The notes beneath the pieces are model-generated. The model was not told the origin of the DNA, did no database searches, and saw only the letters and a program-made list of their open reading frames with translations. From Escherichia phage vB-EcoP-XT18, in the sequence record OR757434.1: DNA of 64,000 nucleotides; one strand, given 5' to 3'. The position numbers were made by a program, and so were the translations under genes. This document shows, in pieces, positions 57,217 to 59,326 of this stretch; the first letter of the stretch is position 1, and the number at the start of each line of letters is the position of its first letter.

Positions 57217-57295
57217 TCAATGGGTGCCTCTGACAAAGGGGCACAATTTAAAGGTTAATTAGATGAAAGGGTTTACCCTTCAGGTGGATTAGAAA

Positions 57296-59326
57296 ATTTG
57301 TGGCATCGTATTAGCTGGCGGTAATCTGTCAAGCACTGATTTAGACGTATTTAACCAACTCTTTTATGCTGGAGTATTCCGAGGGCAACATTCCTCTGGT
57401 ATCTTTGGTCAGCGTAAGAGCACTAAGGAAGTCTTCACTTATAAAGAAGCTCTTCCTTCTTTCGCATTCATCCTACAAGATGAGTACAAGAAGTACACCA
57501 CTGGTGAAACAGCTTACACTGTAGCGCCTTCATGGATTGTTGGTCACAGCCGTCATGCAACGAAAGGTGCAGTTAACGCCAAGAACGCCCATCCTTTCCA
57601 ACATGGTAACATCACTTTGGTTCATAACGGAACCTTGATGGACCAAGACCTGTTACCTGACAGTAAAAACTTCGAGGTAGACAGTGAGAACATCTGCCAC
57701 TCTATTAACACTATTGGTGCAGCAGAGACTATTCAAAAGCTGGATGGTGCTTTCACCTTAATATGGCATGATGCTTCTGATAACCGTCTTCATATCATCC
57801 GTAATGAAGAACGTCCTTTCCATCTTGCACGCTGTAACAGAGATTGGTTTGGTGCTTCTGAAGAAGACATGTTGATGTGGATTCTGAAGCGTTCTAAGTC
57901 TCACAAGAACCGCATTGATGAGCACTTTGAATGTAAAGTTGGTACAGAATATATCTTTGATATGTCAAACAACAGCATGACTCTAGTTGAAGAGGTCGCC
58001 CACGAGCTTCCGGTTTTTACGGTAATCAATCGTTGGGGCAATTACTACTCGAACAACTACAGCCAAAGCAACTATCAAAGTTCCTCAAAAAGCAGTACAA
58101 GCAATCCTTACGACACGAAGCCGGGAGTGACAGCGGCAGACGTTCGTCGAAGAAACGCAGTGGTAAGTCAAAACAAAATCGCAAGCGATCGAAACATTGA
58201 CATTCGCCGCGACATGACTGTGGAAATCACACCACATGAATTTATTCCTTATGCAACTGCTGGTGCTGTTCCTTCTCGTGGTAAGATGATTGGTTATATC
58301 TACGATGAGAAGTCTCAAGAGTATATCGAAGGTGATGTTCATAACGTAGACATTAAGGCTTATCAGGATGCCCTGAAAGACCCTAAAATTGTTTACCGTG
58401 GGACAGTATCCTGCATCTCCGAAGTTAATGCTATGGTTCGTTTAGTGATCACAGCAGGTCGTTTTGTTGACCCATCTCTGGAGAAAAAGGAGCCTGAGTC
58501 TACTACTGCTGACTTTGATGATGATATCCCTTTTGACATGAATGATAGGTTCGTCAACAAGAATGGCGTTACTATCACTCGTAAGTTCTGGGAAGCACAC
58601 TCTCATGGTGATTGTGGTGGTTGTGACAAACACATTGATTGGAAGGATGCACCTAAAGCAGTCTTCGCATATCAATGCTACTGGCACCCTGAATGTCTGG
58701 AAGGTTTGACTAAACCAAAGGATGAAGAAGAGGAGGAAACTCCTATCGGTGTTTGTGAAATCTGTGGTGAAGTTAAAACAGAAAACGAGTTTGATGAAGA
58801 ACTCAGCCGTCTTCGTGGTGAAGATATCTGTAAAGTCTGCGCTGTAGATGTAAAGAAGAAAGTATCTAATGCTACAATCAAAGATGGTTATGTCTGGATT
58901 AAAGCAACAGATACAACAAACGCCCGTCGTCCTGAATTTGCTTTACGTGTAACTGAAGATATGATCGGTCGTATGACTGTATTACCTTCCTCAGCGAAAC
59001 AGACAGGCATCACTCTGGAGGATGTTGTTGATGCTTATGTTGAGAAACGTAGCAACAGTGTTTTTGCAATCTCAACTAAGCCAAAAAAGGAGGAACCTGC
59101 TGAGAAAGCAGGTGTGTTTCCTGAATCACGAACAGCTCTCCGCAAAACTGTTGTCAGCTTCGACGGAAACCGAAGCACTGACTTCACCAAAGCAATGTGG
59201 TCAACCCTCGGATACTGCTCAGAGTGTTTTAAGCAGATTCCGTGGCGTGATGCTGAAAGTTGTACGCTTGGTTCTATGAATCAAGTCTATTGTAATTCTC
59301 CTAAATGTTCATTGAATAGAGGTTAA
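57296..59326 (+). CDS. class-II (Ntn) glutamine amidotransferase fused to Cys-rich C-terminal domain; start codon unresolved
   Basis: CGIVLAGG ... FRGQHSSGIFG and HSRHATKGAVNAKNAHPF match GlmS/PurF/AsnB-type GATase motifs; C-terminal 3 CxxC-type pairs; catalytic Cys preceded only by K-I after in-frame TAG. Confidence 0.65.
   Translation: MCGIVLAGGNLSSTDLDVFNQLFYAGVFRGQHSSGIFGQRKSTKEVFTYKEALPSFAFILQDEYKKYTTGETAYTVAPSWIVGHSRHATKGAVNAKNAHPFQHGNITLVHNGTLMDQDLLPDSKNFEVDSENICHSINTIGAAETIQKLDGAFTLIWHDASDNRLHIIRNEERPFHLARCNRDWFGASEEDMLMWILKRSKSHKNRIDEHFECKVGTEYIFDMSNNSMTLVEEVAHELPVFTVINRWGNYYSNNYSQSNYQSSSKSSTSNPYDTKPGVTAADVRRRNAVVSQNKIASDRNIDIRRDMTVEITPHEFIPYATAGAVPSRGKMIGYIYDEKSQEYIEGDVHNVDIKAYQDALKDPKIVYRGTVSCISEVNAMVRLVITAGRFVDPSLEKKEPESTTADFDDDIPFDMNDRFVNKNGVTITRKFWEAHSHGDCGGCDKHIDWKDAPKAVFAYQCYWHPECLEGLTKPKDEEEEETPIGVCEICGEVKTENEFDEELSRLRGEDICKVCAVDVKKKVSNATIKDGYVWIKATDTTNARRPEFALRVTEDMIGRMTVLPSSAKQTGITLEDVVDAYVEKRSNSVFAISTKPKKEEPAEKAGVFPESRTALRKTVVSFDGNRSTDFTKAMWSTLGYCSECFKQIPWRDAESCTLGSMNQVYCNSPKCSLNRG

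What the first reader, a model, noticed from the sequence alone, without database searches (positions are those of the whole stretch)
57263..57301. Catalytic Cys of the amidotransferase is separated from the only upstream ATG by an in-frame TAG
Ntn glutamine amidotransferases need Cys as the first residue of the mature protein. Here the reading frame is ATG AAA GGG TTT ACC CTT CAG GTG GAT TAG AAA ATT TGT GGC ATC GTA, i.e. a 9-codon mini-ORF (with AAAGG RBS), then TAG, then K-I-CGIV. There is no ATG, GTG or TTG between the TAG and the Cys; the next canonical start (TTG 57617) would delete the whole nucleophile motif. Options are initiation at AUU (57296), termination-reinitiation, UAG readthrough yielding a 12-residue propeptide that is auto-cleaved (as in PurF-type enzymes), or a sequencing error.
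Basis: seen in the sequence. Interest (0 to 1): 0.6.

Follow-up and report, generated by a model that had tools for sequence, protein, structure and literature searches.

The report
AUU start codon of phage amidotransferase
The phage glutamine amidotransferase gene most likely starts at a rare AUU codon where its relatives have AUG; two reference phage records already annotate this, most others cut off the catalytic end, and about one in six related phage genes pairs AUU/AUC with a small hairpin beside the ribosome-binding site.

Summary
ATG(57263), eight sense codons, TAG(57290), AAA, ATT(57296), TGT(57299, Cys); the next in-frame canonical start is TTG 57617.

The window is a phiEco32-like Kuravirus. 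ATT occupies the position where more distant homologues have ATG-TGY (Met-Cys). The 114 codons that most annotations omit are under strong purifying selection (dN/dS about 0.08, dS saturated). They carry the Ntn catalytic residues C2, R86, N111 and G112.

The best explanation is SD-directed initiation at AUU. Met removal would then expose Cys1. phiEco32 and SU10 GenBank records already annotate this 676-aa MCGIV protein, so the bare fact is not new. Most other records, including RefSeq, give a truncated 562-aa product without the nucleophile.

Three things go beyond the finding:
- The 55-nt leader is invariant across genera although synonymous sites are saturated.
- About 16% of distinct leaders in this phage amidotransferase family use ATT or ATC.
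- Those leaders almost always carry a small hairpin abutting a strong SD, which is rare in ATG leaders.

The mini-ORF appears incidental. Readthrough with a propeptide, a sequencing error and a truncated product are all rejected.

The parts
57224..57244 (+). GC-rich intercistronic hairpin (GUGCCUCU-GACAA-AGGGGCAC) after the amidoligase gene; terminator-like but with a poor U-tract
   Evidence: Fold dG -13.9 kcal/mol, z = -2.1. A hairpin sits at the same place with a different, complementary sequence in SU7, UKE3, KBNP1711, A24, SE131 and LAh_9.
57247..57303 (+). Invariant leader block TTTAAAGGTTAATTAGATGAAAGGGTTTACCCTTCAGGTGGATTAGAAAATTTGTGG
   Evidence: 96-100% identical across Kuravirus, Suseptimavirus, Nieuwekanaalvirus and KBNP1711, while the flanking CDS is 60-80% identical and dS exceeds 1.4. 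The leader core (57259-57308) is 96% identical to Aeromonas phage BUCT695, whose protein is only 54% identical.
57263..57292 (+). Mini-ORF MKGFTLQVD* in frame with the amidotransferase; probably incidental
   Evidence: Its SD is weak (AAAGG 57250-57254, -3.8 kcal/mol) and absent in BUCT695 (+0.8). No comparable in-frame, terminated mini-ORF was seen in the other ATT/ATC leader families read.
57264..57282 (+). Leader hairpin UGAA(A)GGG-UUUA-CCCUUCA (core AAGGG/CCCUU 57267-57280). Its 3' end abuts the SD, 13 nt before AUU
   Evidence: Folds. The only change in BUCT695 is in the loop (UUUA to UUAA). A hairpin at the same position with a different sequence occurs in 14 of 17 non-AUG leaders.
57282..57288 (+). 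Shine-Dalgarno AGGUGGA serving the AUU
   Evidence: Duplex with the 16S 3' end is -7.0 kcal/mol, better than the median (-6.05) of 58 long ORFs in the window. It is also better than the sites before TTG 57617 (-2.9) and ATG 57638 (-3.5).
57290..57292 (+). In-frame UAG closing the mini-ORF. It prevents any N-terminal extension that would block Cys1
   Evidence: conserved in all leaders of this type.
57296..57298 (+). AUU initiation codon
   Evidence: Aligns with ATG of Privateer, A24, SE131, LAh_9, LUZ24, PJNS034 and 42 of 47 IMG/VR loci. The GenBank CDS of phiEco32 phi32_83 and of Bas90 start on this codon. The 676-aa proteins begin MCGIV.
57299..57301 (+). Codon of the catalytic N-terminal Cys (CGIV motif)
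   Evidence: Invariant C2 in alignments A1 and A3.
57296..59326 (+). Full amidotransferase CDS: 676 codons plus stop, with an N-terminal class-II (Ntn) GATase domain and a roughly 440-aa C-terminal part with no Pfam match
   Evidence: Pfam GATase_6 E = 1e-14 and GATase_7. Profile hits to GlmS, PurF and AsnB chains. dN/dS is 0.08 for codons 2-114. C-terminal part: no Pfam match.
57638..59326 (+). Truncated CDS (562 aa) as annotated in most public records; lacks C2, R86, N111 and G112
   Evidence: The exact 562-aa sequence is in the protein collection, in a 211-member cluster dominated by 562-aa entries.
56113..57216 (+). Upstream gene, Amidoligase_2 (context: cluster of COOH-NH2 ligase, amidoligase, GATase, DUF7195 and ATP-grasp)
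   Evidence: Pfam results; annotations.

Best explanation
The amidotransferase gene starts at AUU 57296.

Proposed steps:
1. A 30S subunit binds the Shine-Dalgarno AGGUGGA (57282-57288).
2. fMet-tRNA decodes the near-cognate AUU. This step is inefficient and is discriminated against by IF3.
3. The product begins fMet-Cys-Gly-Ile-Val.
4. Deformylase and methionine aminopeptidase remove the Met, since Cys is a small second residue. This leaves Cys1 as the Ntn nucleophile of a class-II glutamine amidotransferase.

The AUU is kept by selection and probably holds the glutaminase at a low level relative to its amidoligase and ATP-grasp partners.

A short hairpin (57264-57282) ends directly at the 5' edge of the SD. 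Hairpin, strong SD and AUY start form a module that recurs in this phage gene family. I infer that it supports or tunes initiation at the weak codon.

The in-frame mini-ORF is most likely a by-product of the leader sequence. Its UAG stops any N-terminally extended, inactive product.

Shown here: the position of the start, that the N-terminal region is coding, the conservation of the leader, and the recurrence of the module. Inferred: low expression as the selected trait and the role of the hairpin.
For: 1. ATT sits where homologues have ATG before TGY: 42 of 47 loci, Privateer, A24, SE131 and LAh_9, LUZ24 and PJNS034, and alignment A2.
2. Codons 2-114 have dN/dS 0.08 with dS above 1.4. C2, R86, N111, G112 and D129 are invariant; the profile alignments to GlmS place R86, N111, G112 and D129 over its HTRWAT, HNG and ETDTE motifs.
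3. The SD before ATT is -7.0 kcal/mol, above the window median, and is retained in BUCT695 at -5.8. The candidate canonical starts downstream have poor SDs.
4. phiEco32 (ABY52884.1) and SU10 (AIF71837.1) are deposited as 676-aa MCGIV proteins whose CDS begins on this ATT. SU10 proteomics detected the protein (PMC4281155).
5. ATT is present in every record read. Of 98 records, 66 are identical over the site, and no ATG variant was found.
6. Recurrence: of 91 distinct leaders, 11 use ATT and 4 use ATC. Many have an in-frame stop 4-15 codons upstream and no ATG, GTG or TTG between. They sit at 6 or more places in the tree.
7. Hairpin abutting the SD: 8/8 non-AUG against 1/51 AUG leaders; pooled 11/16 against 4/73, Fisher p = 1.3e-7; shuffle-combined p = 1.5e-6. 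The SD is stronger in non-AUG leaders (median -7.9 against -6.2, p = 0.013).
8. AUU and AUC are recognised near-cognate initiators. They run at about 1-2% of AUG and are subject to IF3 discrimination (bioRxiv 10.1101/063800; PMC4611024).
Against: There is no direct protein or ribosome evidence for the N-terminus. The SU10 proteomics table gives no N-terminal peptide.

AUU initiation is normally only about 1-2% of AUG, yet the SU10 protein was detected with 9 peptides. That leaves room for an enhancing mechanism.

The hairpin is small (-4.6 kcal/mol for the AAGGG/CCCUU core) and the leader as a whole does not fold better than shuffles (z about 0). The positional window for the hairpin test was chosen after seeing the first examples, and several non-AUG leaders share ancestry. 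The p-values therefore overstate independence.

Three non-AUG leaders (L213, L243, L248) have no such hairpin. Complete invariance of 55 nt is more than an SD, a small hairpin and a start codon obviously require.
Confidence: 0.85

Rival explanations
1. Termination-reinitiation. Ribosomes translate the 9-codon mini-ORF (AUG 57263), terminate at UAG 57290 and restart 3 nt downstream at AUU. The mini-ORF would then be the real entry point, and its translation would also melt the hairpin.
For: AAAGG lies 8 nt before the mini-ORF AUG, and the stop is 3 nt from the AUU. The mini-ORF start, stop and length are kept in BUCT695 despite two substitutions. The whole leader is invariant.
Against: The mini-ORF SD is weak (-3.8) and absent in BUCT695 (+0.8), whereas the SD before AUU is kept. 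The AUG is partly paired in the extended hairpin. No comparable in-frame, terminated mini-ORF was seen in the other ATT/ATC leader families read. Both BUCT695 substitutions are non-synonymous.
Confidence: 0.1
2. UAG readthrough from AUG 57263 gives a 12-residue propeptide (MKGFTLQVD-X-KI) that is cleaved autocatalytically to expose Cys, as in propeptide-bearing Ntn amidotransferases.
For: The mini-ORF is in frame with the enzyme. One distant relative (L187) has an in-frame AUG 12 codons upstream with no stop.
Against: Relatives begin directly Met-Cys with no extension. The only tRNA found in this 64-kb window is tRNA-Arg(TCT). L185, L248, L254, L182, L101 and L256 have in-frame stops 4-7 codons upstream and no canonical start. 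The mini-ORF has a poor SD.
Confidence: 0.02
3. The protein really starts at TTG 57617 or ATG 57638, as in most annotations, and the upstream 114 codons are an untranslated remnant.
For: Gene callers choose these starts. The 562-aa form dominates the public cluster.
Against: dN/dS is 0.08 over codons 2-114 with saturated dS. The nucleophile, R86 and the N111-G112 oxyanion pair lie in that part and are invariant. The SDs are poor (-2.9 and -3.5). The truncated protein would be a dead enzyme.
Confidence: 0.02
4. Sequencing or assembly error, or a strain-specific pseudogene.
For: None beyond the oddity itself.
Against: The sequence is identical in 66 independent phage records and conserved in 98, across several genera, plus 7 metagenome contigs.
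Confidence: 0.01

Closest known systems
phiEco32 gp83 (ABY52884.1 / YP_001671828.1) and SU10 glutamine amidotransferase (AIF71837.1)
   Same: The same gene. It is deposited as a 676-aa protein beginning MCGIV, with the CDS starting on the same ATT. The BASEL phages Bas86 and Bas90-94 follow this annotation.
   Different: This is annotation only. I found no experimental confirmation and no discussion of the leader in the searchable literature. The original phiEco32 papers were not available.
E. coli infC (IF3) AUU start codon
   Same: AUU is used as an SD-directed initiator. It is discriminated against by IF3, giving low and IF3-sensitive expression (PMC4611024).
   Different: In infC the AUU senses the gene's own product, and nothing links the phage enzyme to IF3. 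A hairpin abutting the SD is not, to my knowledge, a described infC feature. I did not test that.
E. coli pcnB (poly(A) polymerase I) AUU start codon
   Same: A near-cognate start is used, apparently to keep a potentially harmful enzyme scarce (one search names pcnB as the second confirmed AUU start).
   Different: It is a single host gene. Here AUU/AUC recurs in about 16% of the distinct leaders of one phage gene family, together with a conserved leader structure.
Class-II (Ntn) glutamine amidotransferases GlmS, PurF, AsnB
   Same: The CGIV N-terminus, the Arg, Asn-Gly and Asp glutamine-site residues, Pfam GATase_6/7, and profile hits to their solved structures.
   Different: The partner domain is unrelated: a roughly 440-aa C-terminal part with no Pfam match. 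The gene lies in a phage cluster of amidoligases and an ATP-grasp enzyme whose product I did not establish.
Propeptide-bearing Ntn amidotransferases (B. subtilis PurF type)
   Same: The same need to expose an N-terminal Cys.
   Different: No propeptide is encoded here. There is an in-frame stop two codons before the start, and relatives begin Met-Cys.

Membership tests
Class-II (Ntn) glutamine amidotransferase | Cys as first residue of the mature protein (directly after the initiator, or after a cleaved propeptide) | tested here: met
   TGT 57299 directly follows the inferred start. C2 is invariant in A1 and A3. Relatives encode Met-Cys. The mature N-terminus itself was not observed.
Class-II (Ntn) glutamine amidotransferase | Glutamine-site residues: Arg, the Asn-Gly oxyanion pair and Asp | tested here: met
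   R86, N111, G112 and D129 are invariant. They align to the HTRWAT, HNG and ETDTE motifs of GlmS.
Class-II (Ntn) glutamine amidotransferase | Significant match to curated family models | tested here: met
   Pfam GATase_6 scores 55.1 bits (cut-off 27) and GATase_7 27.4 bits (cut-off 25). Profile against PDB: GlmS 1.5e-6, then PurF and AsnB.
Class-II (Ntn) glutamine amidotransferase | Four-layer alpha-beta-beta-alpha Ntn fold | tested here: inconclusive
   The single-sequence AlphaFold model had pLDDT 35 and is unusable. No alignment-based model was made.
Genes initiated at a non-canonical AUU/AUC codon | No ATG, GTG or TTG between the upstream in-frame stop and the conserved N-terminus | tested here: met
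   Only AAA and ATT lie between TAG 57290 and TGT 57299.
Genes initiated at a non-canonical AUU/AUC codon | The codon is homologous to the canonical start of orthologues | tested here: met
   Alignment A2 and the locus surveys.
Genes initiated at a non-canonical AUU/AUC codon | Shine-Dalgarno at functional spacing | tested here: met
   AGGUGGA at 57282-57288, 7 nt before AUU, -7.0 kcal/mol.
Genes initiated at a non-canonical AUU/AUC codon | Experimentally determined N-terminus or initiation complex at the codon | not testable with these tools
   Needs Edman sequencing or mass spectrometry, toeprinting, or initiation-arrested Ribo-seq.
Programmed stop-codon readthrough | A translated extension conserved as protein, and a suppressor tRNA or readthrough-promoting context | tested here: not met
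   No suppressor tRNA in the window. Relatives have no extension. The two mini-ORF substitutions in BUCT695 are both non-synonymous.
Termination-reinitiation (translational coupling through an upstream ORF) | An upstream ORF that is itself efficiently initiated and is conserved wherever the downstream weak start occurs | tested here: not met
   The mini-ORF SD is -3.8 in the window and +0.8 in BUCT695. No comparable in-frame, terminated mini-ORF was seen in the other ATT/ATC leaders read. This does not exclude a contribution in Kuravirus.
phiEco32 gp36-dependent promoter (tAATGTATAtA, AATGTA centred at -11.5) | Match to the consensus upstream of the gene | tested here: not met
   The window has AAAGGTTAATT, with 5 of 11 positions mismatched. 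BUCT695 and the ATG-type relatives do have AAATGTAA. Consensus taken from PMC12276001 and PMC4281155.

The most novel reading that the evidence does not exclude
The hairpin, strong SD and AUU/AUC arrangement is a dedicated, conserved translation-initiation module of phage Ntn-amidotransferase genes. It occurs in Kuravirus, Suseptimavirus, Aeromonas phage BUCT695, Klebsiella phage Asterion and many uncultured phage contigs. In this reading, the hairpin abutting the SD helix is required for, or regulates, initiation at the near-cognate codon. The module is either exchanged between phages or has been maintained for a long time by compensatory change. It sets a low, possibly IF3-sensitive or time-gated, dose of a glutaminase.
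Probability: 0.4. Interest if true: 0.6.

Novelty: new member of a known kind. Interest (0 to 1): 0.42.

Why it matters
There are three reasons.

**Annotation.** Most public records of these E. coli phages, including RefSeq, describe a 562-aa or otherwise truncated protein. That protein lacks the catalytic Cys, Arg86 and the Asn-Gly oxyanion pair. The same error occurs in Klebsiella phage Asterion. Any functional, structural or defence/counter-defence inference from those models starts from a dead enzyme. Gene callers that disallow ATT/ATC will keep reproducing the error.

**Translation.** Confirmed AUU starts in E. coli are counted on one hand (infC, pcnB). Here is a natural series of at least ten distinct AUU/AUC initiation regions for one enzyme, with a covarying hairpin at a fixed distance. 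That makes a ready-made test set for how near-cognate initiation is made to work.

**Phage biology.** AUU is kept although a single T-to-G change would create AUG. This argues that the dose of this glutaminase must stay low. That is a constraint on any model of what the amidoligase, amidotransferase and ATP-grasp cluster makes; I did not establish its product.

Tried and rejected
- **Rfam search of 57100-57450:** nothing near any gathering score.
- **RNA folding of the leader:** it does not fold better than shuffles (z about 0), so I make no claim of a large structured element.
- **Promoters:** the sigma-70 and terminator scan found nothing on the + strand in the leader. An antisense promoter-like match at 57332 to 57305 has a -35 that is not conserved in Suseptimavirus. 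The gp36-type promoter motif is degenerate here.
- **Overlapping ORFs:** no ORF of 20 aa or more on either strand overlaps the conserved leader block 57247-57303, so hidden coding does not explain the invariance.
- **Leader variants in metagenomes:** the search returned only identical copies plus chance hits. BUCT695 has no close relative in the phage collection.
- **Structure:** the single-sequence prediction of the N-terminal domain failed (pLDDT 35), so no fold search was run. A single-sequence phmmer search against PDB found nothing; a profile was needed.
- **Literature:** the original phiEco32 papers (PMC2587145, PMC3275717) are not held.
- **Covariation test:** MAFFT alignment of the 14 hairpin leaders (A5) is ungapped and puts the hairpins in slightly different registers. 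No single consensus structure could be scored, so I used per-sequence folds with shuffles instead.
- **Transcriptional slippage or frameshifting:** these were considered and dropped. The mini-ORF is already in frame and the A-run is only 4 nt.
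Full report
**1. Observation**

The window reads ATG57263 AAA GGG TTT ACC CTT CAG GTG GAT TAG57290 AAA ATT57296 TGT57299 GGC ATC GTA. The frame stays open to the stop at 59324-59326. The ORF list gives TTG 57617 as the first canonical start of that frame. All coordinates and statements in the finding are correct.

**2. What the locus is**

The region is 97-99% identical to phiEco32-like E. coli podophages of the genus Kuravirus, with vB-EcoP-XT73 the best match. The gene lies in a tightly packed cluster:

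- COOH-NH2 ligase (54683-55489)
- an unassigned ORF
- Amidoligase_2 (56113-57216)
- the amidotransferase
- DUF7195
- a small ORF
- an ATP-grasp enzyme (59772-60968)

The only sizeable intergenic gap in the cluster is 57217-57295.

**3. The N-terminal 114 codons are translated**

Most records annotate the gene from ATG 57638 as a 562-aa product (Paul, NJ01). Suseptimaviruses are annotated from an ATG at codon 11.

Against KBNP1711, codons 2-114 have dN/dS 0.08 with dS 1.77. Against ECBP2, synonymous differences are beyond correction (63.5 of 80 sites), while dN is 0.175.

The protein matches Pfam GATase_6 and GATase_7 above threshold. A profile of ten homologues hits GlmS, PurF and AsnB chains. 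C2, R86, N111, G112 and D129 are invariant. R86, N111, G112 and D129 align to the GlmS motifs HTRWAT, HNG and ETDTE. C2, R86, N111 and G112 are all lost in the 562-aa model.

**4. ATT is the start codon position**

In relatives at 50-66% protein identity the gene begins ATG-TGY exactly where the window has ATT-TGT, with an ordinary SD 6-9 nt upstream. These relatives are Privateer, Cronobacter A24, Salmonella SE131, Aeromonas LAh_9 and two IMG/VR contigs. Of 47 IMG/VR loci, 42 had ATG and 5 had ATT, all five from Gordonclarkvirinae. LUZ24 and PJNS034 also have ATG.

The ATT is preceded by AGGUGGA at 57282-57288. Its -7.0 kcal/mol duplex with the 16S 3' end is better than the median of 58 long ORFs in the window (-6.05). 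It is much better than the sites before 57617 (-2.9) and 57638 (-3.5).

**5. The fact is already in public records**

The phiEco32 GenBank CDS phi32_83 starts on this ATT, as does Bas90. The deposited proteins of phiEco32 and SU10 are 676 aa and begin MCGIVLAGG. SU10 proteomics detected the protein among the early gene products, with 9 peptides (PMC4281155).

I found no paper that discusses the start codon or the leader.

**6. The leader is under very strong constraint**

From about 57247 to 57303 the sequence is identical in Kuravirus, Suseptimavirus (ECBP2, SU7, UKE3), Nieuwekanaalvirus (EP335) and KBNP1711. The adjacent coding sequence is 60-80% identical and its synonymous sites are saturated. 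The hairpin just upstream (57224-57244) does vary, with complementary changes.

Aeromonas phage BUCT695 belongs to a different family (Grimontviridae). Its protein is 54% identical to the window's, and its closest relative in the survey (Cronobacter phage A24, 66%) uses ATG. It nevertheless carries the same leader and ATT, with only two changes in the mini-ORF-to-start segment:

- UUUA to UUAA in the hairpin loop
- GUG to GCG in the SD region

Of the 98 phage records that hold the leader, 66 are identical over 57236-57325. Seven metagenome contigs are identical too. A query carrying ATG instead of ATT had no perfect match. One T-to-G change would make AUG, and its absence argues that AUU is selected.

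**7. A wider pattern**

Searching IMG/VR for the leader's 3' part and surveying two sets of relatives gave 158 loci, with some contigs appearing twice.

| Codon before the Cys | Distinct leaders (of 91) |
|---|---|
| ATG | 73 |
| ATT | 11 |
| ATC | 4 |
| TTG | 2 |
| misdetected duplicate | 1 |

In L101, L153, L171, L182, L185, L245, L248, L249, L254 and L256 an in-frame stop lies 4-15 codons upstream with no ATG, GTG or TTG between. The non-canonical start is therefore obligatory in these.

In a neighbour-joining tree the ATT/ATC members sit at six or more separate places, each next to ATG relatives.

Among cultured phages:

- Klebsiella phage vB_KpnP-Asterion has ATT and is annotated 17 codons short.
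- PA11 and CVT22 use TTG.
- GP100, phivp506 and Pecta use ATG.

**8. The hairpin**

Every one of the first 8 distinct ATT/ATC leaders has a simple stem-loop of 4-7 pairs (-3.7 to -6.9 kcal/mol). Its 3' end lies 12-16 nt before the start and directly abuts the SD. Only 1 of 51 ATG leaders has one (Fisher p = 4e-9). In the pooled set the figures are 11/16 against 4/73 (p = 1.3e-7). Of the 16, one is the misdetected duplicate and one hairpin misses the threshold at -2.7.

The stems differ in sequence. Examples:

- AAGGG/CCCUU
- GAACCU/AGGUUC
- GCCCU/AGGGC
- GUAGCC/GGCUAC
- AAAGCC/GGCUUU
- AGACUAA/UUAGUCU

The downstream part shares a core, (C/U)AGGAGGAU(U)AG. Each hairpin alone is only marginal against composition-matched shuffles (p = 0.01-0.12), but the combined p is 1.5e-6. 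The SD is stronger in ATT/ATC leaders (median -7.9 against -6.2, p = 0.013).

Caveats: the positional window was set after seeing the first examples, several leaders are evidently homologous, and three ATT leaders lack the hairpin.

**9. The mini-ORF**

An in-frame mini-ORF that terminates just before the start was seen only in the Kuravirus/BUCT695 leader type. Its SD is weak in Kuravirus and absent in BUCT695. Its AUG is partly paired in the extended hairpin.

Part of it (GAUGAAAGG) corresponds to the SD region of the ATG-type relative A24. Relative to the ATG-type relatives, the ATT-type leaders carry roughly 16-18 extra aligned bases (about 24 nt by my reading) that supply the 3' half of the hairpin and the new SD. 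I read the mini-ORF as incidental. Its UAG does have the useful effect of preventing an N-terminal extension that would mask Cys1.

**10. Mechanism and rivals**

The best-supported mechanism is SD-directed initiation at AUU by fMet-tRNA. Met removal then exposes Cys1 (confidence 0.85).

That AUU and AUC can initiate at about 1-2% of AUG, and are discriminated against by IF3, is established (bioRxiv 10.1101/063800; PMC4611024). Low dose as the selected property, and a supporting or tuning role for the hairpin, are inferences from conservation.

| Rival | Confidence | Main reason |
|---|---|---|
| Termination-reinitiation as main route | about 0.1 | Weak or absent mini-ORF SD; no such mini-ORF seen in the other leaders read |
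| Readthrough plus propeptide | about 0.02 | Relatives start Met-Cys; no suppressor tRNA in the window |
| Truncated product | about 0.02 | Strong coding constraint on codons 2-114 |
| Sequencing error | below 0.01 | Conserved in about 100 genomes |

**11. Comparison and novelty**

The closest known cases are the AUU starts of E. coli infC and pcnB. The gene itself is a class-II Ntn amidotransferase by every sequence criterion tested. The fold test was inconclusive because the single-sequence model failed.

The AUU start of this particular gene is already annotated for phiEco32 and SU10, so the finding as given is not new. To my knowledge and within the searchable library, three points have not been described:

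- the scale of the mis-annotation
- the nucleotide-level invariance of the leader
- the recurrence of AUU/AUC with an SD-abutting hairpin across this phage gene family

I score the finding as moderately interesting. The wider module is the most novel reading the evidence leaves open.

Noticed in passing
window 57638-59326 versus 57296-59326; loci L001, L002, L004, L084, L085, L267: Most public records, including RefSeq entries for Paul, NJ01, ECBP2, SU7, UKE3 and Klebsiella phage Asterion, annotate a truncated amidotransferase without the catalytic Cys. The 562-aa form dominates a 211-member protein cluster.
   Followed up: yes
L016 1502-1520 (BUCT695); L005, L006, L014, L015 upstream of the ATG; window 57247-57262: ATG-type relatives and BUCT695 carry TTTAAATGTAA(A/T) 10-30 nt before the gene. 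This matches the phiEco32 gp36-sigma promoter core AATGTA. In Kuravirus the same block reads TTTAAAGGTTAA, which is degenerate. The amidotransferase may head its own phage-sigma transcription unit in Grimontviridae but not in Kuravirus.
   Followed up: partly
window 57224-57244: An intercistronic GC-rich hairpin after the amidoligase gene is conserved in position, with complementary sequence changes across genera and families. It has a weak U-tract, so it may be an attenuator or an mRNA-stability element and not a strong terminator.
   Followed up: partly
window 57305-57332, minus strand: Sigma-70-like promoter match TTGACA-16-TACGAT (10/12) pointing antisense into the leader. The -35 is not conserved in Suseptimavirus, so it is probably chance.
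   Followed up: partly
window 58001-59323 (residues 236-676 of the protein): The roughly 440-aa C-terminal part has no Pfam match. It contains several CxxC-type pairs (CGGC...HPEC, CEIC...CKVC, CSEC...CNSPKC) that suggest zinc ribbons. A C-terminal CxxC pair also appears in the distant relatives L092 and L101.
   Followed up: no
L171/L092, L101/L197, L187/L158 leaders: These leaders read AGGAG-AUG-AGAAA-AUY. The AUG is out of frame, sits immediately after the SD, and opens a 6-7-codon ORF across the real start. AGGAGAUGA is also a near-perfect extended SD (AGGAGGUGA), which may be the real reason for its conservation.
   Followed up: no
L187 (IMGVR_UViG_3300022540_000049), 36 nt upstream of the Cys codon: An ATC-start relative has an in-frame AUG 12 codons upstream with no intervening stop. 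That is the same distance as the Kuravirus mini-ORF AUG. This one member could in principle make a 12-residue N-terminal extension.
   Followed up: no
L264 (Pseudomonas phage PA11), L265 (Citrobacter phage CVT22), L177, L242: Other members of the family use TTG with a strong SD (UGGAGGUG). Weaker-than-AUG starts of several kinds are therefore common for this gene.
   Followed up: partly
window 48183-48257: Single tRNA gene, tRNA-Arg(TCT); no suppressor tRNA in the window.
   Followed up: yes
window 2125-2133 (-), 2197-2205 (+), 12590-12598 (-), 28187-28195 (-): Exact copies of TAATGTATA, the published gp36-dependent middle/late promoter motif. Two face each other about 70 nt apart near 2.1-2.2 kb.
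   Followed up: no
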